Assembly: GCA_964187785.1 (NCBI GenBank) | Contig: OZ076409.1 | Coordinates: forward strand, 31,746,001-31,810,000 | Length of the DNA stretch: 64,000 nucleotides | Direction of reading: 5' to 3' | DNA from: Amphiscolops sp. MND2022 | Lineage: Eukaryota | Shown: positions 21,791 through 60,375 of the stretch, piece by piece | How the letters are laid out: each line of letters begins with the position of its first letter | Position numbering within the stretch: the stretch's first letter is position 1 | Notes under the pieces: generated by a model | The model's database searches: none | What the model was told of the DNA's origin: nothing | What the model saw: only the letters and a program-made list of their open reading frames with translations | Program-made: the position numbers and the translations under genes

Positions 21791-22651
21791 TTTTTTGGAG
21801 TCGGAAAAAATTTTCGACTACTTATGCAATCGTGCTGTTTTTTTTTGTTTTTTTCTCCCGACATTTTCATGAAAATTTCAAATTTCTCAAAAACTGTCCA
21901 TACGATTTTCACGAAATTTTGCACAGTCATTCTGCACCCGAAGGGGCCCCTGCGTGTGCAAAGGCATCAAAATCGTATGGCTGGGATGTGAGAAACATAG
22001 CTAAACTTAGCCCAAAAATGACCAAAAAACAGCCATTTTTCGACTTCTTTCGATTTTCTCAAAAACTGTCCATACGATTCGAACGACACTTTTTACAGTT
22101 ATTCTACACAATTTTAGAGTCCTATATGTGCAATGGCATCAAAATCGTATGGCTGGGATGTGAGAAACATAGCCAAAATTAGCCCAAAAATCGCCAAAAA
22201 ACAGCCATTTTTCGACTTTTTTCGCTTTTCTCAAAAACTGCCCATACGATTCGAACGAAATTTTTTAGTTATTCTACACCATATTAGAGTCCTATATGTG
22301 CAATGGCATCAAAATCGTATGGCTGGGATGTGAGAAACATAGCCAAAATTAGCCCAAAAATGGCCAAAAAACAGCCGTTTTTCGACTTTTTTCGATTTTC
22401 TCAAAAACTGTCCATACGATTCGAACGAAATTTTCTACAGTTATTCTACATTATATTAAAGTCCTATATGTGCAATGGCATCAAAATCGTATGGCTGGGA
22501 TGTGAGAAACATAGCCAAAATTAGCCCAAAAATGGCCAAAAAACATTCATTTTTCGATTTTCTCACAAACTGTTCATACGATTCGAACGAAAGCGAGTCA
22601 GAAGGAACAAGACTTAAGCCGACTCCTTTACCGCATATGTGGCTCTGGTTT
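21791..22651 (+). mobile_element. HINE family A, duplicated copy
   Basis: GGAGTCGG...CCGACTCC sub-TIRs. Repeated ORF starts at 22133, 22303 and 22475 give a 170-172 bp unit. Confidence 0.75.
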
Positions 22652-34754: not shown

Positions 34755-35386
34755 TACGACTTCAAAATTACGTATTACTTACGACACGAAGATGACGCAA
34801 CCGATCACAAAAACAGAGCTGACCAAAAACAACGTCATCAGCAATTAAAATCAATGGTTGAAGAAACAGCGACTAACAAGAGTGGAATGGTTTTTTCCAT
34901 TGAGACAACCGACAAGTGAGTTTGAAAGATAGTACTTTTCCGAGTCACAAGTAGTACTTTGCACAAATCCTGATTCTCTCGCCTTATTTCTTTCTTGTCC
35001 GATCTGCTGTTATACAGGTTTGAACCTCAGCCTATCCTAAATGTTAAGTAAGTATTTGTGTAAGGACTACTCTTTTGGCAAAGTGGAAAACAATGATGGT
35101 TCAACACAAGGGAATTTTCTCCACATGTGTTTTGGTGAATGTTCACTCGTGAACAATTCCTGCTTGAATTGAAAACAAGACAAATTGATATTGAAAATTT
35201 GAGCATCGGTTCCGGAAAACTTGCAACAGACATTGGTTATGATTCAATGATGGTGTCTGACGAAGAACGTGATGATGGCTTGAGGCATCTCAACTTTGAG
35301 GCTGTAAAACTGTTCGAACGCTTGTTGTCATGGCTGGACCAAGTTCAACAAATTGAATTTTTGCAAGCTATTGTTTCCAATCTTCA

Positions 35387-38300: not shown

Positions 38301-39444
38301 TGAAAAATGATTTGTGATTTCTTTGTTTTCATGGTTATCAATGCTACACATTGGTGTGAGAATTCTTCGCATGTTGTTATTTCTTGAACTGTTTTGTGAA
38401 TTCATGAAAATTTTTCTAGATTCTTCAAACACTTTTCTGAGTTGTTGAAATTTGAATGTTTAAAGAATTGACAACAGTTGGATTTCGCACCTACCAAAAT
38501 GTGTTTTGAAGAAATCACAAAAATTGCGCCTTTCCAAGAAATTTGCAGTGCCGCCAAAATGATTGGAGAACTCACACACTAATATTAGCAGTGCAAAAGA
38601 AAGTTTCAAGGCTGAGAAAAATGATTTTTGAGTTCTTTATTTTCATGGCTATCAAGGCTACACATGTAACAGCATTGCATTGGTGTGAGAATTCTTCGCA
38701 TGTTGTTATTTCTTGAACTGTTTCGTGAATTCATGAAAATTTTTCCAGATTCTTCAAACACTTTTCTGAGTTGTTGAAATTCGAATGTTTAGAGAATTGA
38801 CAACAGTTGGATTGCGCACCTACCAAAATGTGTTTTGAAGAAATCACAAAAATTGCGCCTTTCAAAGAAATTTGCAGTGCCGCCAAAATGATTGGAGAAC
38901 TCACACACTAATATTAGCAGTGCAAAAGAAGGTTTCAAGGCTGAGAAAAATGATTTTTGGGTTCTTTATTTTCATGGCTATCAAGGCTACACATGTAACA
39001 GCATTGCATTGGTGTGAGAATTCTTCGCATGTTGTTATTTCTTGAACTGTTTCGTGAATTCATGAAAATTTTTCCAGATTCTTCAAACACTTTTCTGAGT
39101 TGTTGAAATTCGAATGTTTAGAGAATTGACAACAGTTGGATTGCGCACCTACCAAAATGTGTTTTGAAGAAATCACAAAAATTGCGCCTTTCAAAGAAAT
39201 TTGCAGTGCCGCCAAAATGATTGGAGAACTCACACACTAATATTAGCAGTGCAAAAGAAGGTTTCAAGGATGTGAAAAATGATTTGTGGGTTCTTTATTT
39301 TCATGGTTATCAATGCTACACATTGGTGTGAGAATTCTTCGCATGTTGTTATTTCTTGAACTGTTTTGTGAATTCATGAAAAGTTTTCTAGATTCTTCAA
39401 ACACTTTTCTGAGTTGTTGAAATTCGAATGTTTAGAGAATTGAC
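35387..39444. repeat. Satellite array, left arm (~13 units of ~306-329 bp, 955-bp trimeric higher-order repeat)
   Basis: Recurrent TGCAGTGCCGCCAAA.TGATTGGAGAACTC. Near-identical ORF artefacts at 36180, 37135 and 38090 are exactly 955 bp apart. Confidence 0.95.
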
Positions 39445-40973
39445 TGTGATGCCATGATGCATGTCCTCAAAGATTCTACAAATCTGAAATACTCTGAACT
39501 CTTAACCAAAGTAATTAGTAAATGTAATCTCAATTGAAAGCTAAGTATTCTAGAAGAAACTTCACCTAATATATCCTGTAACAAGCTTTTTAGATTCATC
39601 CTGTTGCTGTCACATTGCTAATTGATGCAACCTACCCTGAATAATAGAATATATCTACTCGGAGAAATTGAGAATTCATCCTGACGATCGGTCTTCTCTC
39701 CAGCACTTCAAGAACTGAGATCTCAGAAATAGATTGTACGTAGAACTAGCTAGCTACAAGGTATAAGTAAGACGACTCTGCTGTTAAAATCCTAGACTTC
39801 TTATGTCCGTAATAAAACATCTAAAAGAAACAACCACCACAATTTTTAACAGCCCAATTGGTGCGACCAAGAAATATCTTCTTTCTCTCCCATTCATTTC
39901 ACAACTCTACAATTGTTGTACACCTTTTCTCGACTTTCTCATCCGATATCTTTTTGTTCGACGCACAGTTTCTCCACCTCTCAATATAGCCTACCGTTAT
40001 TAACTTCAACGTTGCAACCAATTTCCACTAGAAATTGATTCGTGTTGCTATGGTTCTGACTACGTCTCCTCACGCAATTCCTGTCAGTTACATTTCTTGG
40101 TTCTGACTGCGTTTCTCAACGTAAATCCTGTCAGTCATATTTCTTGGTTCTGACTACGTTTATTCGCGTAATTCCTGTCAGTAAAAATTTTTTCGTTCCA
40201 ACAACCTCTGAGTGAATTCGTGTTGGCTTTCTCTCTTTCTTCCGTTCCAACCGCAGACGTGCGATACGTGTTGGCCCTTCTACAGTGCTATCCAGCGATT
40301 CCTGCTAGTAAAAAAATTCTTTGGTTCTAGCCGCTAGGATCAACTTTAAAGTTGGCACACTTATATAACATATATTTTTTACATAACACCATTATAACAC
40401 TTTTCTTTCTCTCTCTTCTATAGTACAAACATCATACAAAACTCTTTCAAAACAAGTTTACGGATCCAAATACATAACAATTAAAATATATAACAAATTT
40501 ATTAAACTTCATTTTTCCTACATTTATATAATACATTTTTATACAACTTCTTTGACACACTCTTAACAGAACTTTATTGTACATGCCGTCATCAGTAGAC
40601 ATTGTAGTTAAGCTCATTGTCTGCTTTTGGTTCTTTATTGCTATTGTTGCCGGTCTTGCACTTTTTCTTGACAAATTCCTAATTTCGTTCATACCAAAAT
40701 TTTAAAGTACAACTTTTACCTTCTATGTTAACAAGTATAGTACTACCTCTTTTTGGACTGCTTAGTATTTACCATACTTTTTATACACTTATCCAATATA
40801 TACAAAACCCATTCCTTCTTTTCGTAAGTACAGCACTTACAATCTTCTTACAAGTTGTAATCATAGACCAAATCTTAGCATATAATTCACAATTCAATAC
40901 AAAATATCTTCTTTTCCAATACGTCTATCCTTTATGGCAATCTTATTATACTAACTAAATCTTACACTAAATA

Positions 40974-43900
40974 ATGCTTCCTACTCCATTTACATTAAAT
41001 ACAGGAAAAAGACAAAATCGATCTCTCATACAAGATGTAACACTTTTTCTGAAAAACATCATTTTTCAGTACACAAATCCACTTCCGTTCGAAACAGAAA
41101 ACCATACAGTGCATACTATTCCATTAGCACGAGAACATTGTGATTCTTATCTTTATTACATTCGATATAAAACACTTGAAATAACATCATCACAAACCCC
41201 TTTTCAAGTTATTTTTAACCCAGTTAAAGGAATAAGCTCTGGAACATTTTATAGAACCATTCACCCACAAAATGTTACACTTTCTATACAAGATGTTTTC
41301 CGCACATATATGCAAAAACTCATCGAATTCAATGAAAACCAAGACACACCACTCTATTGTCCTTCTCACCTACAAGAACTAAAACACAGATCTGAATATT
41401 TTGAGGTCACCGATCTTGACACAAAAGTTAAAAGACATGATAACCCTCATCATTGGCTACAACGAGATATTTTACAAATAAAACGTTTTCAATACAGATT
41501 CTTTAACAACATTATCCTTACGGATGACACTATACCTCAAGTCAAAATTTTCACCCAATTCCTATTAAAGTTTCTTAGATTTAATTATCAATTACTTTGC
41601 GAACAAAAAGATCAACAAGCTTACATTACCTTCCCCCAAACACTAACACATATAGAACTTTTACCATACATTATTAAAAATGAAAACAAACATTTACAAT
41701 ACAGAGATCTTACATCATTCAATGTTACACATTTTGAACAAATAAACTTAGATCACAACTTTTTGGTTGAACATTCTGAAACATCAGATAACAGACCTTT
41801 TATTACATCCGATGCTTCTCCTGAAACAACTCCTGAAGAACAAACCTCTAATGTTGAACCTTTATATACGAGACAACAATCAGAACAATCAGAACAAGAA
41901 GCCCTTGCTAACCTGTTTCAAAATTCTGATCCTCCTCAAGAACAACCACTATACCCACCACTATCACAAATCTCAGATATACAACAACCAAATCCTTTTG
42001 AAACAACTACAAATCACGATACATCAGAATTCTCTGAAGAAACAGTACAAAATACACGAAGTTTTACAATAACTGATGATTCAAATATTATAATAATTCC
42101 TACCCACAATATCACACAAAACGAATTTAACAACCAAAATCAAGACAACACTTTAACTACAAATCCAGACAATACCTCCGTTTTATCTACATCCAATACT
42201 AATATTACACAACCCTCTCAGACACAAATATCATCTCCTCGAAACTATAATCCACCTCCTGTTCCACCTCGATTCTCAACTCAGATAAACATCCATAATT
42301 CTTCCCAACAAAGCTCATCAAATACACACCATATTACACAGAACACTAAAACAGTACATTTTCAAACACCAACCCCACCATCACCTGCTGAAATACAAAC
42401 TTCAACTTATACTCCAGCTCAAACTAACCCAGTACCAACACAACCTACTTTAAATATTAACACCGTTCATTCCAACCTATCCTCCAATTATACCGCTGCC
42501 AGACATCTTTCTCGACCTCCATTACAAACTATATTAACTAATCCATTATCGTACAGTCTTACCAGTACTAATCCAAGTCATACACAACCATCTCAGATAA
42601 ATTACAACACACCCAATCCATTAAACACTCTTTCTTCTCAACGTAGGTCTAATACAATCACACCTACATCACAAACTTCCTAATACCAAATACAAAATCC
42701 TCCTTCAACAACAATTAGAACCAACCCTCACTTTCATAACACTTCTACTACTTCCTTAACTAATAGTTCAAATAATCCTACTTACAATACAACACCACCA
42801 TCTACCGTATCTTATAATACTATGTCACACCCAACATATATTAACTCTTCTACTTCTTTATCGGAACCCATTAAACCTTCTGATGGACTAGATCATAATT
42901 ATACACCTGAAGAATATTTACAACATATAGAGGCACGTGTTACATTTTCCTTAGCTCTATAACCTACATCAGAACATGAATATAAATTTTGGCACGCTCG
43001 TCGCATGGCTTTCATACAATGCTCTTTAACAGGTAGAGCACTTAGTTGGAACACTCGTTTAAACGACACCTATAAACATGATTGGCACGCTTTTGTACAA
43101 GCTTTCAAAAAACAATTTTCCTCACAAAAGAACGCTTATTATGCTCAAATTGAAGCCCTTAATTTAACCAAAAAAAATAATGAAACAGTACGTCATTTTG
43201 CACTCAAAGTTCAACAGCTGGTTGAAAAAGGCTGGTGCAATGAAAATGCATCCACTATTAACCTTAAATGTAATGAAATCTTTACAAAAGGACTTCCAAA
43301 AAATCTTAAAGACTTTGCAAACAAAAGACAAGTAAAACACACTTCCACTGTTTTAGAACCTTCAATTCCTTTTCATACATTACTAAAACTTGTTGACGCT
43401 GAAGATATTGCAAACAACAAAATCAGAACACATGACCTTGCTCTTGAAATTAATAATATTACAAAACATTTGAACACTCAAACTCTTGACCCTTCATCTC
43501 AAGAACAACTTATGTTTACACAACCCAAAGATCCAAATAACAAAAATAAACCTGCATATAAGAAATATTGCTCATACTGTCATAGAACAAATCACTCCAC
43601 TTCTGCTTGTTTCAAAAAACAACGAGATGATGAAGATAAACGAGAAGCATATGCTCGATCTAAATCTCCAGAAAAATCTTTTGTATAATACTTCCGTTCT
43701 CCTTCAAACGATAGAACAAAACACTATGATAATCGATACCGAAGTCGAAGTATCTCAAGAGACAACTCTTACAATAAAAACTATTCACAAAATCGATACC
43801 GTTCTACATCTAGAGATAGATTTAGTTACGATAAAAGTACTCCTCCTCCACACTACTCTAGATCACGATATGATACATATAAACGTGATTCCCGGTCCTA

Positions 43901-46900
43901 CCGTTCTCCTTACAGATCTTCATACAGATCCCCATATCGACACAACTCTCGTCCTAGATACAGATCACGCTCCTATTCCAGAGACAACAAATTCACAAAT
44001 TATACAAATTCATACAGACCAGCTTCAAGACCAAGAGACTCTAGATTTTCTAGATCTTGCTCACACTCCAATACCAGAAACAAAATTAATATGATACAAC
44101 AACAAGACCAATCTGACCCTATAAAATTTGAAGTACACATGTATCACCCAACAGCAATGGCAAATGCTGTCACACCTACAAGTTGGTTTTATACATTATA
44201 TGTACATACACCATCAAGTATAGTACAAAGAGACAACCCATCTAGATTGGAAATTGCATTCCTTCTAGATAGCGGTGCTTCTATTTCTGTATTAAATTAC
44301 CCAACATACATAATTCTTACAAAACCCTTAGATATCAGATCTAATCACACTTCCGATGTTGGACCAACTCGAAATTCCAAAACATTAACCGTTGCAAACC
44401 AAACTGAAGTTCCTATTTTACACTATGCAAATATAATTTTGAACACTACTATTGATGAAAACTCCCGTTACTTTTCAGTACCTTTTGCAGTAGCTGATAT
44501 CAAATACAACATTCTTGGCACACCCTTCTTTGAAGATAATATACAAAACATAAACATACAAGACTTTACACTCGAATTCAAATACCAATCGAAAACACAC
44601 CCAAATTATGCAAAGTTCACAACACTCTTATCTGAAGATTATCCATATTTCTCTTACATTTATAGAACTAATTCAAAGACTCAAATACGCCTGAAACCCA
44701 AGTCTTCAAAAATTGCACACTTTCCAATAAAAAACTATCATAACCTCCATTTTACAACTACACCACAAAACCACTTCTTCCCTTCAGTACCTCATACCTA
44801 TTTTGCTACTAAATTTCGTACAAATTTCAATTTTATTGAAGTATTAACTGATGACAAACCATATACTTGTGCAACTATCATCCAAATCACCTCAAAACAT
44901 GTTGCAACACTGCCTACAGGACATATTGGATACATTGAAGTTCCAATTACTAATGAAAAACCCAAATTCTTCCAAGTTAAGGATAGTAACACTTTAATAC
45001 ATAATGTTACTCATACCTACCATCCTGAAATCATTGAACCAGTTCCACAAACTAACCATATCGTACAATACGATGATCCTACAACCCCTCCTCCTCATTT
45101 CTCCTTACATCAAATTTATATGACAAATGATGACATTCCAAATCAAACTTCTCCTTCATATAACGTTTAGCCTACTTCTCATACTTCCGAAAAACGCATT
45201 TTTCCTTCTCTTCCATACACTTCTGAAAATCTGAAATTTATTAATAAATTTAACTTCCAATTTTCTGACCTTACAGACACCGAATACATTACTCTTTGCA
45301 ATATGTTACTCAAGTATAAAACATGTTATGCAACTCATAAAAACGATGTTGGAAAAATTTCAACACCCTTCCCTATTCGCCTTAAACCTAATGCTCAACT
45401 TATGACACAACGTCCTTCTAAAGTCCCTATTCACTACCGAGACAAACTTAATGTACTTCTCAAAGAACTCGAAAAATATAACTTTATCAAACAAATTGGT
45501 TCCTCTCCACAAGACAAACCCGTTTATGGCAAAACCTTATTTAAACCCTCTCATTAAAATCCCCAAGGGAGATACTATAAAATGTGTATTAGACGCTCGA
45601 CATCCTAACTCCAATACAGAACAATCTGATGAATCTTGGCCTATTGAACCTCTCGCTCCACAATTAGCACGCGCAAACAAAAAGTACAAATCTGTTATTG
45701 ATCTTATGTATGCCTATGCACATACAGCTCTTCATGAAGACACTTTTAGACTTACCAGTTTTTCCTCAGGAGATAAACTTTTCGCTTTCATCCGAGACTT
45801 TTATGGTCTCAAAGGACTCCCAAACTTCTTTACAAAACAAATGTCTACCTTCTTTAAAACTCTTATAGAACAAGGTTTTGCTCTTGTCTACATTGACGAT
45901 ATATTACTTTTATCTGACTCTAAAGAACACTTGTTCCAACTCATAGAACAATTACACATAATTAGTACAAAAAACAATCTTAAACTAGTCCCTGAAAAAT
46001 CCTTTTTCATGCTTCTTAAAGTCAAATTTCTTGGACATGAAATTGGTTACAATACAATTAAACCAATCCATTCGAAAATTGCAGCTATCCATAAAATCCC
46101 TTCTCCAACTGGCAAAGTTGCCCTATTGAGTTTCATTGGTGCACTCAATTTTTACCCCAAATTTATTGAAAAACTACATATTAACCTCAAACCATTTTAC
46201 GATCTTTTACATACACTCCTTGGAAATGGACAGACGAACACGAAAGTCTTTCCCAAAAACTTAAAATGTCTCTCACTTCTGAAACAGAACTTACAATACC
46301 AAATACAAAACATCCATTTTTCATTACAGTTGACGCTTCCCTTATTGGATTAGGCGCTGTCTTATTCCAATTAAATGAACAAAACAAAATGAAAGTTATA
46401 TCGTACAACTCTCGTATACTTAACCCACAAGAACAAAAACTCTCCACACTTGATAGAGAACTTCTTGGTATAGTACATGCCCTCCAAATTTATGAATTTC
46501 TTATCATTGGTTCTCCCCATCCAATACACATTTTTACTGATCACGAACCTTTATTACATTGTTTTACAAAGAAAGGTAACCTTAGTCCTCGTTTTTATAG
46601 AGCTCAAATGCAGTTTACAAAATTTTCAAAACTCAAAATAATTCACCTTCCTGGAAAAAATCTCTCTGTTGCCGATATGTTAAGTCGCTCTTTTACAAAA
46701 GCTGAATTACAACTCAACCAATTAAAACATAAACAACTTCCACCACAAATTGATTTTGCACTTCTACAAGATAACACTCTTAAACCTGTACATTACTTAA
46801 TTAAACATGAAGAAATCTTACATCATCAAAAACATGACTTTCACCCAATTCTCGCTGATTATGGTACAGACCAATTCTCTATTCGTATCAATGATAAAGG

Positions 46901-49109
46901 AAATGACATTGTTGTCAAATCGTTACAATCTTTCTCATTCAAATCTATAACTCCTTTTCAAACCAAGTTCAAAACACCTATAAAAAAGAACAATAAAACC
47001 CTTCATCAACAATCTCTCTTACTCAAAGATAATGACGTTACAAGCGATGACGAAGATCATATGTATACCAGAATTCCAAAATCTGACTCTTCTTTCCTAC
47101 ATGACACAACAATACAAACAAAAAACCATTCTACTCTTAACCAATTAACCCCAAATACCTGACAAAAATCTGTTTCTGCAATAAATGTACAACCAAATCT
47201 ACCATCTCTCACACATTGTCCACAGATTATACCTTTCTATGATACATCATTTTTTAGGTACAAAAACTATTTTCAAGGTTTTTTCCTCCCAGATGACTAT
47301 TCATTAGACATAACAACACTTCAACAACAACAATCCCAAGACCCGGTTCTTAGAACTGTTTATTCTTGGATCATGAAAAATGAAAAACCTGAAACTCTAA
47401 CACCACTTATCACTGGCACTCCTTTTCTACATGCTTATTACAAAAGATTTTCAGAACTTTTTATAGATGACTCCACAAATCGTATTAGCGTTTATACTAA
47501 ACACCCTACTACTCTAAACCAATCTTTTATTCCAGATTTTGTACGCGCTACTATTCGAATATGTCTTCCATTTCGACTCTTCAAAACTGTTTTTAACAAA
47601 CTTCATGAACATTCCCATACAGGCATCAAAATTACATATAACACATTCGCACAATATTACTACATTCCATTTGTTGAAAAATGGTTTTCCATTTTTTTAC
47701 ATGACTGTATTGAATGTCAACGCAATAAACAGTTCAACATGAAAATTCAAACTGCTCCTACACAAACTTTTTCAGATCACGCTCCATCCTTCAATTACCG
47801 CATTTCAATGGACACTAAAGGACCTATTAATCCTCCTTCCCACAACAAATCATATATACATGTAATAATTGACGCTTTTAGTCACTTAGTTGTTACAGTA
47901 CCCATCAAATCAAACAACGCAAAGACTGCTATCAAAACTCTTCTACACCATTGGATTATTAAGTTTGGACCACCCATATATCTTGTCACTGATCGTGGAT
48001 CAGAATATGTTAATAAAGAAATGGCACACCTTTGTACACTTATGGGAATTCGTCATTCTCCTAGAACAGCTTACTCTCCTTGGACAAATGGCCTTGTCGA
48101 AGCATATAACAGAAATCTTGGTACACACCTACGAATGTTCTTACATGACACACCTAAAGATTGGGCATTCCAAGTCCATATGTACGCTTATGCACATAAT
48201 TCACAACTACTTTCAGAACTCAGTATTTCTCCTCATGAAATTGTTTTTCACACCAGACCCAGAATCCCCCTTACGTTCGATTTAAATTTTAACAGAGACA
48301 CCTCTAAAACATGTATTTCACGCTATTGCTCTCAACTTCCAGAATACTCCCACTATGATAAATCAGATCTTAATCCATTTTTTTTATAAAACACTTTCAA
48401 AACCCATTCCCCATTGGTTTCTCGCCGTAGAAACTGCTACCCCTACGGTAAACCCCTTCCTATTGGCACCTTTGTTTTAAAACGAAATTTCACACACGTC
48501 CATTTTTCTGACAAACTAAAACCCCTTCGGATTGGACCATACAAAATTATTGATCGACTATCAGATGTTACATATGAACTACTTGCACAAGATGGTTCTA
48601 CAATACATGTTCATAGAAATCATTTAATTCCATATTATCCAAAAGAACCACTCTTATATCCACATTTGCGTAGCTTCATGCGCTTTTCAGACACAACTCA
48701 ATTCCAAATTCCACAACCTACCAAATATGCAAACAGTGATTCTTCCCCTTTTAACTCAGACTAATCCTTATCAGACGAAGATTCTCAAACATTCATGACA
48801 CCATCCACAACGGAAAATTCTTCTCAAACATTTGTGACACCATCATCATTTAGTACGTCCAACCAAAATACACCATCTACAACATCCAATGACAAGTCTT
48901 TAACTTCCTCAACCAATGACAACTACTTATATAAACATATAATTAACACCCCTCACACTAATATCTCTAGTGACAGATCAACACACCCTTCTATAAACCA
49001 AACAACTTCACTTCCTCCTCTAACTGACAGAACTACTAAAACTACTTATAAACTACGACAACAACTCAAATTAGATTATAGACTTTTTATTACACCCTCA
49101 AAACTGTAA
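40974..49109 (+). pseudogene. Single ancestral gag-pol polyprotein (~2700 codons) broken by stops and frameshifts
   Basis: ORF pieces at 40974, 43005, 44091, 45303, 46266, 47373, 48414 and 48795 share one frame. Capsid-like region, CSYCHRTNHSTSAC, FLLDSGAS, YIDD, VDAS..DRELLGI..FTDH, H..H..C..C, MDTKGP, TDRGSEY, NGLVE and GPY. Confidence 0.9.
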
Positions 49110-49228
49110 CCTCATCATTCTATCTGCTGGCTCACTCAAAACTAGTCACTACAGCTGAATGAAAGATAACCAATAACATGTTATCTTAAAGATAACCTGT
49201 TGAAAACATTTCAAGAATCCTGGATTCT

Positions 49229-52200
49229 TTGTCTGATATATCTCCATCAGCTCCAAGTATTCCTTCTACTCCTGAATCTTCAGTATCAAACACTACAAAC
49301 TCTAGTAATGTAACTCCTACTACTCCTTCTGAAAGACCAAGATCATACGTTTCTGAAACAACATCTTCATCACTCCTTCATAGACCACCTATAACTGAAA
49401 TACCTATAAACACTCGTACTCAACAAACTCCTATTAACACTCCTATAGTACACATACCAAACCCTGAAAGTGTTGAACAATACGTAAATTACAAACATCC
49501 TACAGCTATCAAAACTGTTAGACTACAACCTCAGCTTAGTCTTGTACAAATCCCTGATACTGAATATACAAAATTACCTTCACTGAAATTACCATCAGAA
49601 CTTAGTACTACTACTTCAAAACTTTCTCCACCATTAAAACCTCTTCGAAAACCTTCTACATCACTCTCAAATCTCTTAGACAATACATCAGAATACACTC
49701 CATCACAAGATACAACAGGCCCACTTTTTGTACCACACCATAGTTATAATCTTCGAGATCTTCCTTCACGAAGACTTAGTACAGACACTTCTACACTTAA
49801 CCTATCTGCTCTTTCTAGCAATTCTACTTTAAGACTTCTACGACAACACGCACAACCGTTGTCTTCTGAAACAATTTCTTCTGACTTTATACCTTCTCCA
49901 TATTTTACATCTGGTTTTGACACCGCTTCTCTACTTTCCTCAGACGCTCAGACTGCATTCCTTTCCGGAAATCTTTTCTCAGAAGTTATAATACCTACTC
50001 CTGTTCCCGCACATATTAGAATACCTGAATATTATACTGCAGATCAATCTAGACCTCCAACTCCAAATTTTGCTGACTACCCACTTAGAGTCGATGGTAT
50101 AACCATCTACGACCCACAGCAGGATCCTAGATTTCCTATCCTTGCATAACGTTTCATTACATCATTACAAACAACGACCTCTTATCTCACAAAAGAAAAC
50201 AAAAAGAACTAAAACGCCTTCAGACACCTAATCTAGAGCTCAAATTTGAAGTAAAAGTCAAATTTCAAGGTTTAAATCTACATCCAATATTTCACGTCTC
50301 AAAGATTGAACATAAAACTTCTCCTGCTCCTTTTGAAGTAGTACACATTGATTTTGAACGAGACCTCAATATACCTACTATCACATATGGCAAAATCATA
50401 TTCTGTAACCCGTACTCAGGTCTTAAATATACTACCTCTTTTTGAACTCCTGACCACTTCATTTATAACAATTCCAATACTTTATTCACACTTATTTAAC
50501 TTTACCTTTTCAATACCCATAACACCCTCTGACACAGAAAACTATCTTCCATCGGATGATCCGAACATTACAAATCTCATGGTTTCTCATTACGACTGTG
50601 CAAAACAACACAATTTGAGACAATTTAATTTACCTAATGTAAAACAATGCACTGAAGCTCCTTCTGACATTAAACATGCAAGTGTTAAAGCCCGTGTATT
50701 TGTCCGAGCAAAAACTAAACGCATCAAAGTTTTTAAATGTGTTGCTTATGCAAAGAAAGAAAGGAAAATATGCTTTCAAGGTTCCGTAAACTACCGTCGT
50801 GTTGATAGAACAGTATGGAATCATAAAACATTACCGCTTCCTGTTACTCTTGATTCATTAGAATGTAAAAACATTATAAGACATTCAAATGGTACAAATG
50901 ATAAAATTTTGAACAACCTCTGCTACAATAAAACTTCCATACTCTTAGAGGACCATTATTTTCAAGAACGATTAGAACAATATCAAACTCCTTTCACTGT
51001 ATACGAATTGAACAAAATGTACACAGGTACATTTACATTTATGCCCGCCGATAAAAACTGGGTATATGACCCTACACAAAACCCTTCTCATAACTGTCCT
51101 GCTCATCACCAATTCGAAGTCAACCTAGTCAGTTGGCGATTAGAAATTTCCGAAGTAGAACTTACTTATGATGACACATCTAATGACATGATAATAGATG
51201 GACATACATTACCCTGCTATTTTGCAGATGGTTTTTGTAAACCCACAACGAAAACCCCTTTTACTCTTGTTTGGTTCAATGATGACTATTGCCTAATTTT
51301 CACATTACAAGACTTCATTGGTCGTATGACTAAAATTGAAGATAGATATTGGATTGAAACAGACTCTTTTGTACATTCTCCACACTCAATAAAACCTAAA
51401 ACAACACAACATCCAAATAACCCAAGTCTTTCAAGATTTGAAGTTTTTCCTACAGCACAAACCTTTTGTGGTAAACCAGACCCTCTTTATTCTACACAAT
51501 ACTCAGACCTTTTTGTTACATACACTGATGGTTTCAATATGCATACAGGACAACCCAATCCTCATTCTATGATTGATGAATATACTTCTGGTAAAATAGT
51601 ATTGGACACTTCAAATAACAAAATAATATTTCCTGCACTAAATGTTTCAAACAATTTTGCTACCATTGACTATGACGCACATATAAACTCGAAAATAGAT
51701 TACACTATTAACCATGTTTTTAGATCAATGACAGTACAAGAACTAAATACTCTACATACCATATGCGAATTAGAACGAAATCAACTTCTTACAATACTCG
51801 CCATGTCAGTACAAAATCCTCAACTTGCTGGTTTTCTTTTAACCGGTAATCGAAGTAATTTCTTATACGTTGAAGGCCCCACCGCCTGGCTTTATGACTG
51901 TTCTCATTTTTTATCTCCTTTATATAAAGCTGATAGATGTGATAATAATCCACGTAACATTATTGAACTAGATCCTGATCCAGACGATCAAGATTTTTAC
52001 AGTCCTGGACCTGAACCTATTAAACGCAAACCTCCACTAATGTTTACACCTTCACAAATTGAAACTACAATACGTCCTAACACGTTTACAGCTCAAGATG
52101 CTGGTATATATACTAATGCAGAACTTGACCAATTTTGGAATCGTATTTTATTTTCCAAACATTCTGATTCTACACTTCAATTACCAGGCAAAGCTCTTAG

Positions 52201-52917
52201 CTATTCTTTCATTTCATCTAATACTCCTAATAATGATGCAGATTCTGGTAATCCCTATAATACATTACGTATAGGACTACATGATAAACTCTTGAATTTA
52301 ACTCCTCTTTTTACGCCTACATGGTTTGCAGATGCTTTTATTGCACTTTTTGGATACCCTTGTTACATTCTCACACAATGTGGTATATACTTTTACATTT
52401 CTTTTTGTACAAGCTACTCTCACACTCATTGTCAAACTTTACAAAACAATATCTATTAAATATAATCTCAAAAATAATATTACCTTATTTAGTTCTATAG
52501 CACATGGTTTTTTTAATGTTCTTACAGCACGAATGGTCAATGACCTCAATGAGACTTAAAACAAAAAACCCAAAAGTACACTTTTAAAATCCAAATCCTT
52601 AGATAATTTTATTGACACTTCAACTGATGTTACTTCCCCTCCACCTTTCTATACTAAACGTCCTAACAAAATTCAATTTCCCAAATTTACCTTGTTTCCG
52701 AAACGACACCACAATTCTCACCAAAACAGCTCCATTTTTATTCTCTCCTGTTCAACATCCTCCACTTCCTAGTTATACTCATAAAAACTTTCATCCGAAT
52801 GACAATCTAACTACTCAACATGACATTTTAATTAACAATTCTGTCACCTCTACTACGGATACACCAATTAAAATGTTTTCACGGATAAACTATCTTTTTC
52901 CTCCTCCATCTTCTTGA
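49229..52917 (+). pseudogene. Envelope glycoprotein (class III fusogen-like) with a long S/T/P-rich leader
   Basis: 49229 and 50348 are in one frame. Internal hydrophobic signal-like stretch, YDC, Cys-rich ectodomain with NxT/S sequons, CYFADGFC..LVW, ICELERNQL..NPQLAGFLL..EG..WLYDC, and a C-terminal TM segment in frameshifted 52326..52559. Confidence 0.75.
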
Positions 52918-53131
52918 ACACTCTCTCAGTTTTTTGTAAACTTTCTTCCAGCACACTTGCCTACTATTTCATCTTTTCACAATTGCTACTCCTCCACCGC
53001 TTGAAACTCTTGCAGAAGTTCATCTTCCTCAATCCAATAACACATCTCTAATCATAACAGTTTTCAAAAACTCTTCACCTAAAGTTGATAAATCCACTCG
53101 TTAGTGTCATTTAAAGTACTTTCACTTTAAA

Positions 53132-54520
53132 GTGATAAGGCCTCTTGGAATAGATAACACTGTGATTGTTGATGTTTTTCTTTCAATTACAATGACACAA
53201 GCACAAATTGATCTACAAACACAGCTTGAACAAGCAACCCCAACAGATCTTATAACTAGACCTCTTTCAAATGATTCTCCCGTTCTCTATATCGAGACTT
53301 CTGAACAAACACCTCCAACTTTTCTTGAACAAATGGAACACACAAAAGTTGAACACGAAAATTCAAAACCTACTCCTTCACAAGACGCTACTGATCATAC
53401 ACAAACAACACCACTCCCTCCAAAAAAGCGATATGAAATTATGAAAGATCCAATCTTTCTTCCTTCACCAATATACCCTCCTTCAATACCTTCAAAAATT
53501 TCACTTTGCAAGAATCGTGATGATCATTTGATCCCACTTCTTTCTAATGGCGATTTCGTCTTTAAAGCACAACTAACTTCTCTATATATGCATCCTACTG
53601 ATTATTCATTCCGCTTATATGACGAAAATCAAGACTTCTTCACTTCAATTGCCTCCAAAATAATGGGTCCATACCAATATTGGCTCGATAATGGAGTCAA
53701 AACTTTCTCTCTACAATTCAATTTTCTCCGTCCTTCTATATACGATCTCAAAACAGATGAATCTGATCCATCTTACCTTTCTATTTCACAAAAAGCTACT
53801 CATCATCAAACATATACTAAGTTTCTACAATACACCAAACCACAAAATAACATTTTCGTCAATTACAAATATACATCACCGTTCACAATGACAAATATGT
53901 ACACTCTTGACCACTCTTGTATAACAGGCTATCTTCGAAACTATGACCCTATAAAACAATACTTCTGTTTGCTTCCGTACAATAATACTTCACGTCCACT
54001 TATTGTACCTCAAGAATACCTCATACATTACGATGACTTTTTGTTGCCTTGCAACATTCCTACTCAAATTGTCAAACCTCTCACTGTCATTAAACACCTA
54101 GTATCTTCTCCACTTGACGATAAAGATAGAACTTACTATACAGCACTCTACAAGCAAAAATATTCCTACAATGAACTTCTCTTCATTTCTGCAAAGACTA
54201 TTTCTTTTATGGTACAAGCTGAACAAAAAAGTGAACATAAATCACACTCTTCACCTATAAAAAACGCTCCTGACAATCTTTCCTCTGTACTGAATAACCG
54301 AACACTTCGCGATATGACAAATTTACTTGAACCCTATAAACGAAACTCCTCTGAAACACCTATCACAACACTCACACATATACTACACGGCTATGACAGA
54401 ACACACAAACTTCTTCAAACACTCGATTTAGACTCTCAACGCATCACTCAATCATCCCAAGCAATTCAATCTGCTTTGGAAACTATAACTACTCTTTTTA
54501 ACTCAACTAATCTTCATTAA
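53132..54520 (+). CDS. Accessory ORF of unknown function inside the giant Gypsy element
   Basis: 462-codon open frame between env and the 3' LTR (first ATG ~53192), with the element's C/A-rich composition and a C-terminal coiled-coil-like stretch. Confidence 0.65.
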   Translation: MIRPLGIDNTVIVDVFLSITMTQAQIDLQTQLEQATPTDLITRPLSNDSPVLYIETSEQTPPTFLEQMEHTKVEHENSKPTPSQDATDHTQTTPLPPKKRYEIMKDPIFLPSPIYPPSIPSKISLCKNRDDHLIPLLSNGDFVFKAQLTSLYMHPTDYSFRLYDENQDFFTSIASKIMGPYQYWLDNGVKTFSLQFNFLRPSIYDLKTDESDPSYLSISQKATHHQTYTKFLQYTKPQNNIFVNYKYTSPFTMTNMYTLDHSCITGYLRNYDPIKQYFCLLPYNNTSRPLIVPQEYLIHYDDFLLPCNIPTQIVKPLTVIKHLVSSPLDDKDRTYYTALYKQKYSYNELLFISAKTISFMVQAEQKSEHKSHSSPIKNAPDNLSSVLNNRTLRDMTNLLEPYKRNSSETPITTLTHILHGYDRTHKLLQTLDLDSQRITQSSQAIQSALETITTLFNSTNLH

Positions 54521-54943
54521 ACTCTTCTACAGGTAATACAAATTTCCTAATTTTTCTTCTCTGGTACACTCTATGATACATCTTTGACACTATATCGAAG
54601 GTATTTAGATTTTTACCTACTTAATCAAAGTAATATCTTGCTTTCTGAATGAAATCTCAGGACTATCTTTAAAGTACATACTTATTTCCTATAGTACATG
54701 TCAAAAATTACTATTTATGTCTAAAGCTACACAAAAAACAATGATACAAGACATACAAGACAGTATAGCACAAAACTATATATGATACATTCTAGCACCT
54801 TTTATATATGGTACTTCTCTTTTATTGTCGTTGTTAGATTTCTTACACTCCGTGTGTTTTAGAAACATCCATTCTTCTTCCTCCTCTTTCCATTTTCTTT
54901 CAGAACATCTCCACTTCTTCTTCTTCTACAGCACACTCTCGTC

Positions 54944-55399
54944 ATGGCCCCCAACGCTGAAGTAGAAGATATAATAACTATGACTTCCAGTCAATCAAAA
55001 GTACACAGCCTCAAAGCCGCCATCTTTCATACAATGGCCTCTTGTAAACTCTCTCTTGAAATCAACAAGAATAAAATCACCCCCAAAACGATTATTGCTT
55101 TTCTCAAAGTTCTCTACAGTGTTGCCCAGATCAAGACGAAAAAAGTTACTTTCGAACAGTACTCTCGCATTCATTTGGCTGGCCCAAAAATCGCAATTTG
55201 CGAGACTGCATCCAATGCTGTTTTTGTTTTGAATTCTGCATTTACATCAAAAGACCAATATTTCCAAACTGCCATACAAGAAGCAATCCTAGCCTTTAAT
55301 AACGTTCTCAAAGATTTTGGGTACACCCAAACCCTTGAATACTACGACCCTAATGTGCATCAAGCACATCCTCCGCCGCAACATCCTCTGTTTCAATAA
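54944..55399 (+). CDS. Second accessory ORF of unknown function
   Basis: 151 aa, ATG in gtcATGg context, preceded by polypyrimidine tracts with cag acceptors at ~54903 and ~54931. Confidence 0.6.
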   Translation: MAPNAEVEDIITMTSSQSKVHSLKAAIFHTMASCKLSLEINKNKITPKTIIAFLKVLYSVAQIKTKKVTFEQYSRIHLAGPKIAICETASNAVFVLNSAFTSKDQYFQTAIQEAILAFNNVLKDFGYTQTLEYYDPNVHQAHPPPQHPLFQ

Positions 55400-57177
55400 T
55401 TGACAAAAACTTTCACTCACTTTTATTTACTCTTCAGCTACATCTCGTCTTCATTTCTTCATCCTTCTTCGATGATGTCCCGACATGTGGTTGCTGATCA
55501 CTCCTCCAAAGAACTACGCTGACACTTCTCACTGCTACATGCACACCCTCCAGATGGTCAACATCATCCATCGCCACTGGGTTCTTCCATATTGACAACC
55601 TGCTTCTGCAACTGTCAACTGGTCTTCACAATCGTCACTGCAATGCTGACTTCTTTCAACTTGACTGGTCTTCTCACTTTGCTCCACTGAACTGGACTCA
55701 ATTCACTTGTCACTAACTGAACTCGCCGCAATTCATTTGCCAATTTCAAACCATTTATTTGCTGTAAATGTCCCACTGTATCTTAATAATTTCAATGTAA
55801 CTTTAACGTATAATCTTATTTATTGTAAATTCATAATATAACTTTAATAACGCATAATCTTATATAATCTTAATTTTCTATATTCTTACTATAATTACCC
55901 CCTCTGTTGCTAAACCCTTACAAAATTTCATCTATAATTATCTTTGTAACCGCAAAATATATCTTCCCAAATTATATCCCCATTGTCATGTGCATAATAC
56001 ACCTGTTTAACAATTCTATAATCCCCATCTTTTACAGAACAAATGTCCTACTTACAGCACAAGAAATTTTCTAAGATTTTTGACAAAAATTTTTTCTTTC
56101 ACAAAACGTGTTCTACACCTTTGTTTTACTTCCCAAAAGCATTCCCCAAAAATTTTCAAAATTTTACTTTTGAACTTTTTAAAACTGTAACTTCTCGTTT
56201 TTCAATGGTTGAAACTTGTAATTGACAAAGTTTTTTTCTGCCTTGAACTTTTTGCTTCTGCTCTACTCTTCACTTTCATTGAGAATGAACTCTCACTCGA
56301 ACCTTGACTTTTCGAAACTTCTTCACTTTTGGTTCACATACCCGCCAATGTTGATTCACCACTCATTGACAACTTCACGCTTTAATTCTTCAACTTGAAA
56401 AGTTTTCAATGCTGACTAACTCATGTTGATGACAAATTTTTTCAAACAAGCCGATGGCTGATACGAAAAGAAACATGAAATACTAAATAGTTGTCAACAA
56501 TAACTTGATCGAAAACTGTCAGTTAAAGAAACTGAAAGAACTTGAACCTTTTTGCACCAATTGAATCGTCTATGACGTAAGAAGTTAAATCGTCTTAGAT
56601 TGTTCTCTCTCCTTAAGTATGGTACACTACAGAACGAAACTCATGCAACTCAAGTACAACACATATGAAACAAACCCATGCATATAACATCTAAAACAAA
56701 AACTTTTAGAACTCCTCAAACCCAAAGTGCATATATGTAATTTTAATTTTAAATTCCCGGTTAATTGTGATGCCAAGATGCATGTCTTCAAAGATTCTAC
56801 AAATCTGAAATACTCTGAACTTTTAACCAAAGTAATTAGTAAATGTAACCTCATTTGAAAGCTAATTATTCTAGAAGAAACTTCACTTAATATATCCTGT
56901 AACAAGCTTCTTAGATTCATCCTGTTGCTGTCACTTTGTTAATTGATGAAACCTACCCTGAATAATAGAATATATCTACTCGGAGAAATTGAGAATTCAT
57001 CCTGACGATCGGTCTTCTCTCCAGCACTTCAAGAACTGAGATCTCAAAAATAGATTGTACGTAGAACTAGCTAGCTACAAGGTATAAGTAAGACGACTCT
57101 GCTGTTAAAATCCTAGACTTCTTATGTCCGTAATAAAACATCTAAAAGAAACAACCACCACATTTTTTAACAGCTCA

Positions 57178-60100
57178 TGACAACAGTTGGATTTCGCACC
57201 TACCAAAATGTGTTTTGAAGAAATCATAAAAATTGCGCCTTTCAAAGAAATTTGCAGTGCCGCCAAAGTGATTGGAGAACTCGCACACTAACATTAGCAG
57301 TGCAAAAGAAGGTTTCAAGGATGTGAAAAATGATTTGTGGTTTCTTTATTTTCATGGTTATCAAAGCTACACATTGGTGTGAGAATTCTTTGCATGTTGT
57401 TATTTCTTGAACTGTTTTGTGACTTCATGAAAATTGTTCTAGATTTTTCAAACACTTTTCTGAGTTGTTGAAATTCGAATGTTCAAAGAATTGACAACAG
57501 TTGGATTTCGCACCTACCAAAATGTGTTTTGAAGAAATCACAAAAACTGCGCCTTTCCAAGAACTTTGCAGTGCCGCCAAAATGATTGGAGAACTCACAC
57601 ACTAATATTAGCAGTGCAAAAGAAGGTTTCAAGGATGAGAAAAATGATTTTTGGGTACTTTGTTTTCATGGCTATCAATGCTACACATGTAACAGCATTG
57701 CATTGGTGTGAGAATTCTTCGCATGTTGTTATTTCTTGAACTGTTTTGTGAATTCATGAAAATTTTTCCAGATTCTTCAAACACTTTTCTGACTTGTTGA
57801 AATTCGAATGTTTAGAGAATTGACAACAGTTGGATTGCGCACCCGCCAAAATGTGTTTTGAAGAAATCATAAAAATTGCGCCTTTCAAAGAAATTTGCAG
57901 TGCCGCCAAAGTGATTGGAGAACTCGCACACTAACATTAGCAGTGCAAAAGAAGGTTTCAAGGATGTGAAAAATGATTTGTGGTTTCTTTATTTTCATGG
58001 TTATCAAAACTACACATTCGTGTGAGAATTCTTTGCATGTTGTTATTTCTTGAACTGTTTTGTGACTTCATGAAAATTGTTCTAGATTTTTCAAACACTT
58101 TTCTGAGTTTTTGAACTTCGAATGTTCAAAGAATTGACAACAGTTGGATTTCGCACCTACCAAAATGTGTTTTGAAGAAATCACAAAAACTGCGCCTTTC
58201 CAAGAGCTTTGCAGTGCCGCCAAAATGATTGGAGAACTCACACACTAATATTAGCAGTGCAAAAGAAGGTTTCAAGGATGATAAAAAAGATTTTTGGGTT
58301 CTTTGTTTTCATGGCTATCAATGCTACACATGTAACAGCATTGCATTGGTGTGAGAATTCTTCGCATGTTGTTATTTCTTGAACTGTTTTGTGAATTCAT
58401 GAAAATTTTTCCAGATTCTTCAAACACTTTTCTGACTTGTTGAAATTCGAATGTTTAGAGAATTGACAACAGTTGGATTGCGCACCCGCCAAAATGTGTT
58501 TTGAAGAAATCACAAAAACTGCGCCTTCCCAAGAACTTTGCAGTGCCGCCAAAATGATTGGAGAACTCACACACTAATATTAGCAGTGCAAAAGAAGGTT
58601 TCAAGGATGAGAAAAATGATTTTTGGGTACTTTGTTTTCATGGCTATCAATGCTACACATGTAACAGCATTGCATTGGTGTGAGAATTCTTCGCATGTTG
58701 TTATTTCTTGAACTGTTTTGTGAATTCATGAAAATTTTTCCAGATTCTTCAAACACTTTTCTGACTTGTTGAAATTCGAATGTTTAGAGAATTGACAACA
58801 GTTGGATTGCGCACCCGCCAAAATGTGTTTTGAAGAAATCATAAAAATTGCGCCTTTCAAAGAAATTTGCAGTGCCGCCAAAGTGATTGGAGAACTCGCA
58901 CACTAACATTAGCAGTGCAAAAGAAGGTTTCAAGGATGTGAAAAATGATTTGTGGTTTCTTTATTTTCATGGTTATCAAAGCTACACATTGGTGTGAGAA
59001 TTCTTTGCATGTTGTTATTTCTTGAACTGTTTTGTGACCTCATGAAAATTGTTCTAGATTTTTCAAACACTTTTCTGAGTTGTTGAAATTCGAATGTTCA
59101 AAGAATTGACAACAGTTGGATTTCGCACCTACCAAAATGTGTTTTGAAGAAATCACAAAAACTGCGCCTTTCCAAGAACTTTGCAGTGCCGCCAAAATGA
59201 TTGGAGAACTCACACACTAATATTAGCAGTGCAAAAGAAGGTTTCAAGGATGAGAAAAATGATTTTTGGGTTCTTTGTTTTCATGGCTATCAATGCTACA
59301 CATGTAACAGCATTGCATTGGTGTGAGAATTCTTCGCATGTTGTTATTTCTTGAACTGTTTTGTGAATTCATGAAAATTTTTCCAGATTCTTCAAACACT
59401 TTTCTGACTTGTTGAAATTCGAATGTTTAGAGAATTGACAACAGTTGGATTGCGCACCCGCCAAAATGTGTTTTGAAGAAATCACAAAAACTGCGCCTTT
59501 CCAAGAACTTTGCAGTGCCGCCAAAATGATTGGAGAACTCACACACTAATATTAGCAGTGCAAAAGAAGGTTTCAAGGATGAGAAAAATGATTTTTGGGT
59601 ACTTTGTTTTCATGGCTATCAATGCTACACATGTAACAGCATTGCATTGGTGTGAGAATTCTTCGCATGTTGTTATTTCTTGAACTGTTTTGTGAATTCA
59701 TGAAAATATTTCCAGATTCTTCAAACACTTTTCTGACTTGTTGAAATTCGAATGTTTAGAGAATTGACAACAGTTGGATTGCGCACCCGCCAAAATGTGT
59801 TTTGAAGAAATCATAAAAATTGCGCCTTTCAAAGAAATTTGCAGTGCCGCCAAAGTGATTGGAGAACTCGCACACTAATATTAGCAGTGCAAAAGAAGGT
59901 TTCAAGGATGAGAAAAATGATTTTTGGGTTCTTTGTTTTCATGGCTATCAATGCTACACATGTAACAGCATTGCATTGGTGTGAGAATTCTTCGCATGTT
60001 GTTATTTCTTGAACTGTTTTGTGAATTCATGAAAATTTTTCCAGATTCTTCAAACACTTTTCTGACTTGTTGAAATTCGAATGTTTAGAGAATTGACAAC

Positions 60101-60375
60101 AGTTGGATTGCGCACCCGCCAAAATGTGTTTCGAAGAAATCACAAAAATTGCGCCTTTCAAAGAAATTTGCAGTGCCGCCAAAATGATTAGAGAACTCAC
60201 ACACTAATATTAGCAGTGCAAAAGAAGGTTTCAAGGATGAGAAAAATGATTTGTGATTTCTTTATTTTCATGGTTATCAATGCTACACATTGGTGTGAGA
60301 ATTCTTCGCATGTTGTTATTTCTTGAACTGCTTTGTGAATTCATGAAATTTTTCTATTTTCTTCAAACACGTTTC
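57178..60375. repeat. Satellite array, right arm (~10 units)
   Basis: Same monomer as the left arm, resuming in register after the TGAC TSD. Carries its own diagnostic variants. Confidence 0.95.

What the first reader, a model, noticed from the sequence alone, without database searches (positions are those of the whole stretch)
39445..57177. 17.7-kb retrovirus-like Ty3/Gypsy element with a class III-like fusogen and multiple extra genes
Seen: paired 412-bp LTRs with a TGAC TSD, a ~1.1-kb leader, ~2700-codon gag-pol, env, two further ORFs and ~1.3 kb of 3' non-coding sequence, with a strongly G-poor sense strand. Known: typical Gypsy elements are much shorter, and insect errantivirus env is baculovirus F-like. 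Chuvirus-G/herpes-gB-like glycoproteins are mainly reported in BEL/Pao elements. Inference: the Cys pattern and the ICELER..P..AG..G..Y.C block look chuvirus-G/gB-like, suggesting an independent envelope capture by a complex Gypsy lineage.
Basis: partly seen in the sequence, partly recalled or inferred. Interest (0 to 1): 0.75.

Follow-up and report, generated by a model that had tools for sequence, protein, structure and literature searches.

The report
Enveloped Gypsy element with extra genes
This is a broken 17.7-kb copy of an abundant virus-like jumping gene, likely from an animal genome, whose predicted chuvirus/herpes-type membrane-fusion protein is of a kind already known in such elements, but which also carries three extra protein genes of no known family that are likely read from spliced RNAs, as in complex retroviruses.

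Summary
The element is real: 412-nt LTRs (14 mismatches), TGAC target duplication with the empty site seen in 21 flanking satellite units, broken gag-pol, env, G-poor strand. Pol is Ty3/gypsy; env scores above the cut-off of PF24664 (Monjiviricetes fusion glycoprotein). That pairing is published as widespread and ancient (PMC13524379), so 'independent capture' is unsupported and could not be tested. What is less ordinary: three accessory genes, not two (ORF-A between pol and env; ORF-B and ORF-C after env), plus a 50-codon ATG-less exon-like stretch. All four carry the element's codon signature; ORF-B and ORF-C lie in clusters of hundreds of relatives, ORF-B down to 36-39% identity, with no Pfam, PDB or fold match. 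Splice signals (best acceptor 13 nt before ORF-C's ATG) suggest subgenomic mRNAs, untested on RNA. Env tails keep a PPxY motif in 17 of 17 relatives. G is 2.4% at fourfold sites; no purine tract precedes the 3' LTR. Host, RT placement among named clades and accessory functions remain open. New variant of a known kind.

The parts
39441..39444 (.). Target-site duplication TGAC (left)
39445..39856 (+). 5' LTR, 412 nt, TG...CA; TATA-like 39762, single AATAAA 39811
39859..39870 (+). PBS-like site starting TGG, 2 nt after the LTR; primer tRNA not identified
39857..40973 (+). Leader: 47-nt repeat x2.8 (40051-40182), acceptor-like site 40423, 40-codon hydrophobic uORF 40583-40705, ATG 40725 opening 33 hydrophobic codons up to the only GTAAGT donor (40824)
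40974..49109 (+). gag-pol, one ORF in relatives (2691 aa): N-terminal domain, P/T/Q-rich linker, capsid (PF03732), zinc knuckle, RS-rich region, protease motif, RT, RNase H, long bridge, integrase with SH3/p58 C-terminus; broken here by stops and frameshifts
49196..50445 (+). ORF-A: accessory gene between pol and env, S/T/P-rich (41%) with a beta-rich C-terminal part; no ATG in its open stretches; frameshifted near 50150 here; overlaps the env start
50387..52917 (+). env, PF24664 class III-type fusion glycoprotein (901 aa in the intact relative P0002); broken here by in-frame deletions, two frameshifts and a stop; PPxY at 52641
52952..53104 (+). ORF-D: 50-codon ATG-less coding-like stretch behind an acceptor-like AG (phase 0); candidate exon
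53192..54520 (+). ORF-B: open 442-aa accessory gene, conserved core, long C-terminal helix, no known family
54944..55399 (+). ORF-C: open 151-aa accessory gene, 13 nt behind one of the element's two strongest acceptor-like sites (54931)
55400..56765 (+). 3' non-coding region; no purine tract before the 3' LTR
56766..57177 (+). 3' LTR, 412 nt
57178..57181 (.). Target-site duplication TGAC (right)

Best explanation
This is a dead, full-length copy of an abundant Ty3/gypsy family that carries a predicted class III (chuvirus-G/gB-type) envelope gene and three accessory genes, and that likely spreads as an enveloped endogenous virus whose downstream genes are likely read from spliced RNAs. Shown: integration by an LTR integrase (LTRs, 4-bp duplication, empty sites), one Gag-Pol frame in relatives, PF24664 env, coding signal and conservation of the accessory genes, near-identical relatives. 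Inferred: the 5' LTR makes a ~17-kb RNA that is both Gag-Pol message and genome; a leader donor is joined to acceptors in front of the downstream genes (about 0.6); Env fuses particles with target cells, plausibly germline, as argued for other env-bearing gypsy elements (about 0.7); the PPxY kept in all env tails binds a WW-domain ubiquitin ligase during sorting or budding (about 0.5; motif role recalled). My best guess for the extras, weakly held: ORF-B (basic cluster, beta-rich core, long C-terminal helix) is a Rev/CERV-like factor that lets unspliced RNA leave the nucleus (about 0.25); ORF-A (S/T/P-rich, PSAP or LYPxL motifs) assists budding (about 0.25); ORF-C is a small adaptor (Roadblock-like lead only, about 0.2).
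For: LTR/TSD. Pol: best PDB match Ty3 Gag-Pol E 4e-48, ahead of caulimovirus-type 4.5e-27 and foamy 8e-18; domain order. Env; 16 Cys in the same order in four subfamilies 51-77% identical. Accessory genes: codon-position score trained on gag-pol+env gives z 6.9/7.5/3.5 (ORF-A), 8.5 (B), 4.0 (C), 4.4 (D; 12.2 bits against a maximum of 7.9 in 127 non-coding windows). 90% clusters: ORF-B 1036 and 502 members, ORF-C 590 and 312, env 1758, 1585, 603, 424, Gag-Pol 1183; 93 of 120 listed ORF-C hits are 148-152 aa; ORF-B keeps its core at 36-50% identity. Deletion chimeras in other copies join ORF-A/env (1), env/ORF-B (5), ORF-B/ORF-C (1) among 623 stored proteins. One ORF-C sequence sits on 69 contigs, one ORF-B on 11. 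Splicing: 2 of the 4 best of 189 acceptor-like sites lie within 50 nt before an ORF start, permutation p 0.002, both before ORF-C; ORF-A and ORF-D have no ATG. PPxY in 17 of 17 tails at one aligned place while tails of distant subfamilies are 22-25% identical.
Against: No RNA evidence for any splice. No strong YAG acceptor was found before ORF-A, env or ORF-B. The env model is poor (pLDDT 32, pTM 0.27), so the Foldseek ranks rest largely on sequence and TM-scores are about 0.1. Hydropathy finds signal and anchor peaks above 1.6 in P0002 only; P0003 and P0033 show only the N-terminal one, P0169 neither. No purine tract precedes the 3' LTR and the primer tRNA is unmatched. ORF-A was seen whole in only three relatives and in two fragments. 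Gene order in other copies rests on chimeras and on shared contig lengths (10-13 of about 142, no proper null). PSAP/LYPxL are not kept at one place between this copy and relatives. The two acceptors in the permutation test are neighbours, not independent.
Confidence: 0.65

Rival explanations
1. Same genes, other expression route: the downstream ORFs are read from internal promoters (as env in Oikopleura Tor3b/4b) or cut out of one long RNA by host trans-splicing, not by cis-splicing from the leader.
For: Tor precedent (PMC4402516 passages). Only ORF-C has a strong acceptor. An earlier unchecked note says this genome has a spliced leader.
Against: ORF-A and ORF-D lack an ATG, which an upstream coding exon would supply; a single GTAAGT donor lies in the leader in phase 0 with an open ATG frame, matching the phase of the ORF-D acceptor, though 53 of 773 leader positions have such a frame.
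Confidence: 0.25
2. One reading: this lineage captured its envelope on its own from a chuvirus-like virus.
For: Top Foldseek rows are chu-like glycoproteins; the 120 listed of 169 env hits are all 49% or more identical and from the same source type, so no intermediate was seen.
Against: Identity to those viral proteins is 10-14%. gB-type env is reported in gypsy elements of many phyla and argued to be ancient; chuvirus-like baits recovered 114 gypsy elements.
Confidence: 0.2
3. The extra ORFs are passengers: host or foreign genes picked up once and carried along without a role in the element's cycle.
For: No family, fold or function was found for them.
Against: They share the element's extreme codon bias (G3 3-11%), keep length and core motifs across subfamilies diverged as far as env or further, and no non-family homologue appears in the 150 listed of 591 ORF-B hits by length or identity pattern (no names given).
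Confidence: 0.12
4. Env is kept for an intracellular or cell-cell role and no free enveloped particle is made.
For: Transmission is unknown for almost all non-Drosophila env-bearing gypsy elements (PMC13524379 discussion); anchor hydropathy is modest.
Against: Full ectodomain with conserved cysteines, sequons and PPxY tail in four subfamilies.
Confidence: 0.15

Closest known systems
HSV/gB-type 'errantiviruses' (env-carrying Ty3/gypsy) of Chary and Hayashi, PMC13524379
   Same: Ty3/gypsy pol, gag-pol-env order, class III gB/chuvirus-type env, many near-identical copies.
   Different: 17.7 kb against 8.9-13.5 kb in the 31 rows with LTRs among the 60 of 221 ENV_HSV rows seen (their method drops LTRs over 14 kb apart); 1277 nt and a whole gene between pol and env (one prefilter allowed 1000 nt); two more genes after env; the main text has no hit for 'accessory', 'sORF' or 'fourth ORF'.
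Anakin and related BEL/Pao elements with chuvirus glycoprotein (PMC7642597 listing only; PMC10084718 passages; PMC12440569 first part)
   Same: Same fusogen class in an LTR element.
   Different: Pol here is gypsy, with no DUF1759; the BEL element in this window does hit DUF1759.
Cer1 of C. elegans with CERV (PMC10309623, passages)
   Same: Invertebrate LTR element whose extra, spliced gene is needed for export of unspliced RNA: the functional model for ORF-B.
   Different: CERV shares exons with the polyprotein; no sequence or fold link to ORF-B was tested or seen; here a separate env and several stand-alone ORFs exist.
Burro/GYPSM1 giant gypsy of planarians; foamy-like fish ERVs up to 17 kb (PMC6431247, passages)
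   Same: Large size, env homology, accessory coding capacity.
   Different: Burro exceeds 30 kb, packs domains and an F-like env into one polyprotein; fish elements are retroviruses.
Tor elements of Oikopleura (PMC4402516, passages); bdelloid LTR elements with ORF3 (PMC5408684, abstract); MDG1-group sORFs (10.1101/2025.03.14.642691, abstract)
   Same: Gypsy-type elements with env or one to two extra ORFs, spliced or from internal promoters.
   Different: None of the passages seen describes a class III env together with three separate accessory genes.

Membership tests
Ty3/gypsy (Metaviridae) LTR retrotransposon | Direct LTRs with TG...CA ends and a 4-6 bp target duplication | tested here: met
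Ty3/gypsy (Metaviridae) LTR retrotransposon | Pol order protease-RT-RNase H-integrase after gag | tested here: met
   on P0339; protease by motif and a weak Asp_protease_2 hit (E 0.14)
Ty3/gypsy (Metaviridae) LTR retrotransposon | RT/RNase H closest to Ty3/gypsy | tested here: met
   best PDB match Ty3 E 4e-48; RT_RNaseH/RT_RNaseH_2, SH3_Tf2-1; best-hit only, no tree
Ty3/gypsy (Metaviridae) LTR retrotransposon | tRNA primer-binding site | tested here: inconclusive
   TGG-led site 2 nt after the LTR; shares only its first 7 nt with the Gly ends listed in the eLife table; host tRNAs not available
Ty3/gypsy (Metaviridae) LTR retrotransposon | Polypurine tract before the 3' LTR | tested here: inconclusive
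   absent in this decayed copy (7 purines in the last 15 nt); DNA of other copies could not be fetched
HSV/gB-type errantivirus (operational group, PMC13524379) | Ty3/gypsy pol with a separate env ORF inside the LTRs | tested here: met
HSV/gB-type errantivirus (operational group, PMC13524379) | Env homologous to class III gB/chuvirus glycoproteins (profile level) | tested here: met
   PF24664 83-96 bits, cut-off 27, E 1e-23 to 2e-27
HSV/gB-type errantivirus (operational group, PMC13524379) | Five-domain gB fold, fusion loops, cysteine-bridge type | tested here: inconclusive
   model pLDDT 32; VIA search returned only helical-region matches, best Z 5.6
HSV/gB-type errantivirus (operational group, PMC13524379) | Signal peptide and membrane anchor flanking the ectodomain | tested here: inconclusive
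   both peaks in 1 of 4 relatives at the 1.6 threshold
HSV/gB-type errantivirus (operational group, PMC13524379) | Place in the published POL tree; RNase H plus 'mini' domain bridge | not testable with these tools
   no named reference sequences could be obtained; bridge piece had no Pfam hit
F-type (baculovirus F/paramyxovirus-like) errantivirus | Class I F-type env with furin site | tested here: not met
   no F-type Pfam family at E<=1 in three intact relatives; no R-x-[RK]-R in four
BEL/Pao (Anakin-type) | BEL-type gag/pol families (DUF1759 and kin) | tested here: not met
   none on P0339; positive control in the same window hits DUF1759 E 2e-24
Complex-retrovirus-like organisation | Several accessory genes under selection | tested here: met
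   protein-level conservation and codon signature; dN/dS not computed
Complex-retrovirus-like organisation | Accessory genes made from multiply spliced RNAs and acting as regulators | not testable with these tools
   only splice-like signals; no reads available

The most novel reading that the evidence does not exclude
A 'complex' Metaviridae lineage: an enveloped gypsy virus with a class III fusogen and its own set of spliced regulatory and budding genes (a Rev-like exporter among them) in new protein families, evolved in parallel with complex retroviruses, missed by published screens because of size and gap filters, and possibly priming its plus strand without a purine tract.
Probability: 0.3. 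Interest if true: 0.75.

Novelty: new variant of a known kind. Interest (0 to 1): 0.5.

Why it matters
Gypsy elements with a gB-type envelope are now known, but their entry route is open and they are described as three-gene elements. A family with thousands of database entries, four envelope subfamilies and three conserved accessory genes would show that genome complexity of the HIV/HTLV/foamy kind also arose in Metaviridae, supply new protein families to test for RNA export and budding, and show that current screens miss the larger members.

Tried and rejected
No host genome is held. No sequencing run was listed, so expression was not examined. No relative in JGI metagenomes or IMG/VR for env or RT, so no DNA of other copies, no dN/dS and no PPT/PBS comparison. 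Env fold: low confidence; VIA-align gave no gB or other class III chain among its 50 rows, which is inconclusive; env profile against PDB sequences gave one chance hit. ORF-B: Pfam, NCBIfam, PDB profile, Atlas, Foldseek viral and PDB, VIA all without a usable match; model pLDDT 46; an SH3/Tudor-like barrel at about 53900-54010 is my reading of the strand pattern, from recall, not confirmed. ORF-C: Atlas hits 0.85-0.87 include Roadblock/LAMTOR clusters, below the 0.9 mark; Pfam and PDB blank; homodimer job gave no answer. ORF-A: no Pfam or PDB hit. A dUTPase-like domain between protease and RT (recalled resemblance) found no hit. Leader repeat does not fold better than shuffles (z 0.27); no Rfam hit; no tRNA gene in the window. 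The 40-codon hydrophobic uORF as a sORF2/FAST-like protein: coding signal weak (z 1.5), not claimed. APOBEC3-type editing as the cause of G loss: no GG or GA depletion and no neighbour preference. The bacterial promoter scan was irrelevant. An acoel host was a guess from recall; nothing in my calls establishes it, and the eLife supplements hold no acoel or Xenacoelomorpha term. Searches for a printed description of this layout found none; the library lacks most subscription papers and Repbase.
Full report
Observation. The element spans 39445-57177 (17,733 nt). Its LTRs are 412 nt, begin TG and end CA, and differ at 14 sites. TGAC flanks both ends, and the uninterrupted target with a single TGAC occurs in 21 units of the surrounding 312/329-bp satellite, so ends and duplication are exact. 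No further LTR or internal copy lies in the window. The internal region is 10.2% G against 19% in the flanks.

Gag-pol. The window's pieces tile a natural relative, P0339, one ORF of 2691 aa. It has capsid (PF03732), RT, RNase H, integrase zinc finger and core, and SH3/p58 C-terminus in gypsy order; the best solved relative is Ty3 Gag-Pol, E 4e-48. No BEL family hits it, while a BEL element in the same window hits DUF1759. This copy is dead: seven in-frame stops and at least two frameshifts. A tree with named gypsy clades was not possible, as no named reference could be brought in.

Env. It runs 50387-52917 and matches the natural 901-aa P0002, with in-frame deletions, two frameshifts and a stop here. 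Four subfamilies, 51-77% identical, form 90% clusters of 1758, 603, 1585 and 424 entries, fragments included. Three intact relatives score 83-96 bits on PF24664, Monjiviricetes fusion glycoprotein, cut-off 27. The AlphaFold model from 22 sequences is poor (pLDDT 32). Foldseek nevertheless ranks invertebrate RNA-virus glycoproteins, mostly chu-like, in all ten named of the top 12 rows, at 10-14% identity and TM about 0.1; VIA-align found only helical matches. So class III is shown by profile, not by fold. Sixteen cysteines are kept in order; no furin motif; signal and anchor peaks both pass the hydropathy threshold in 1 of 4 relatives. A PPxY motif sits at one aligned place in 17 of 17 tails, though distant tails are 22-25% identical (per-sequence shuffle p 0.01-0.21). 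Its role as a WW-domain ligand is recalled, not tested.

Accessory genes. ORF-B (53192-54520) and ORF-C (54944-55399) are open here. ORF-B: 264 hits (120 listed), clusters of 1036 and 502, and full or partial relatives at 36-50% identity that keep the core motifs. ORF-C: 564 hits; 93 of the 120 listed are 148-152 aa; clusters of 590 and 312; one sequence lies on 69 contigs. ORF-D (52952-53104) is a 50-codon stretch without ATG, also seen in two chimeric relatives. A codon-position score trained on gag-pol and env supports all four (z 3.5-8.5); the leader uORF does not pass (z 1.5). Linkage in other copies is indirect: deletion chimeras ORF-A/env 1, env/ORF-B 5, ORF-B/ORF-C 1 among 623 proteins, and 10-13 shared contig lengths per gene pair of about 142, without a null. 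None of the proteins has a family or fold match; the ORF-B model (pLDDT 46) shows a beta-rich middle and long C-terminal helices.

Expression. Four genes behind pol cannot be read from the genomic RNA by scanning. The only GTAAGT donor lies in the leader at 40824; two of the four best of 189 acceptor-like sites lie just before ORF-C (p 0.002, but they are neighbours); the ORF-D acceptor and the leader donor are both phase 0. No strong acceptor precedes ORF-A, env or ORF-B. Splicing is therefore inferred at about 0.6; internal promoters, as in Tor3b/4b, or trans-splicing are the rivals.

Oddities. G is 2.4% at 1567 fourfold sites (GAA:GAG 144:4) with no neighbour preference, against G3 18-21% in two neighbouring LTR elements; the cause is unexplained. 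No purine tract precedes the 3' LTR (7 purines in the last 15 nt). Eleven of 14 LTR differences fall in the first 184 nt (p 0.011).

What is known. PMC13524379 (seen: abstract, sections 5 part 1, 6, 7, 9 part 1, 14, 15, term searches; supplement 2 part 1 and 60 of 221 ENV_HSV rows; supplement 7 part 1; figures not seen) reports gB-type env in Ty3/gypsy of cnidarians, ctenophores, tunicates, nematodes, flatworms, bryozoans and arthropods, recovered 114 gypsy elements with chuvirus-like baits and argues for an ancient origin. The 31 of 60 rows with LTR coordinates span 8.9-13.5 kb, but the study dropped LTRs over 14 kb apart and, for part of its screen, pol-env gaps over 1000 nt; this element (gap 1277 nt) would fall outside, so the size contrast is partly a filter effect. 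Burro elements exceed 30 kb with env homology and accessory ORFs (PMC6431247, passages). Cer1 makes a spliced export factor, CERV (PMC10309623, passages). Also seen: PMC4402516 and PMC10084718 passages, PMC12440569 first of five parts, abstracts of PMC5408684 and 10.1101/2025.03.14.642691 (bioRxiv supplements closed). Searches listed no paper on a class III-env gypsy with three separate accessory genes; Repbase and most subscription papers were not searchable.

Verdict. A dead copy of a large, recently copied family of gB/chuvirus-env gypsy elements: known kind, new variant by its conserved accessory gene set, extreme G avoidance and apparent lack of a purine tract. Interest 0.5; 0.75 if the accessory genes prove to be spliced regulators (probability 0.3).

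Noticed in passing
window 17435-17938 and 20342-20893, minus strand: Two similar frames; the first hits JmjC_2 (E 4.5e-5, just above cut-off), the second does not at E 0.01; 172-bp tandem arrays lie at 19034-19757 and 21876-22561.
   Followed up: partly
window 26020-31100: A second, decayed A-rich gypsy element (protease, RNase H, integrase hits), about 30% identical to this family in RT.
   Followed up: partly
window 11530-16870 (+) and 1803-3112 (-): Decayed BEL/Pao element (DUF1759, RT) and a fragment with an integrase core.
   Followed up: partly
window 35386-39444 and 57178-60376: 312/329-bp satellite array into which the element inserted; 21 empty target sites.
   Followed up: yes
window 56746-56765: No polypurine tract before the 3' LTR; the two bases outside each inner LTR end are AT, making symmetric ends.
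   Followed up: partly
window 39857-56765: G at fourfold sites 2.4%, with no dinucleotide preference; cause unexplained.
   Followed up: partly
window 39445-39628 against 56766-56949: 11 of 14 LTR differences lie in the first 184 nt (p 0.011), hinting at recombination or partial conversion.
   Followed up: no
window 40583-40705 and 40725-40823: A 40-codon hydrophobic uORF and a 33-codon hydrophobic frame ending at the leader donor; coding signal weak.
   Followed up: partly
window 49244 (ORF-A), 41949 (gag), relatives P0328/P0334/P0340: PSAP and LYPPL motifs resembling budding late domains (recalled); not kept at one place between copies.
   Followed up: partly
window 43689-44090 and 44598-44987: Long RS-rich region after the zinc knuckle, and a conserved beta-rich segment between protease and RT without a family hit.
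   Followed up: partly
P0167: A relative with a tandemly duplicated env in one 1323-aa frame.
   Followed up: no
window 6618-7625, minus strand: Two short frames that read like pieces of a Polinton-type DNA polymerase gene (recalled resemblance); no Pfam hit at E 0.01.
   Followed up: no
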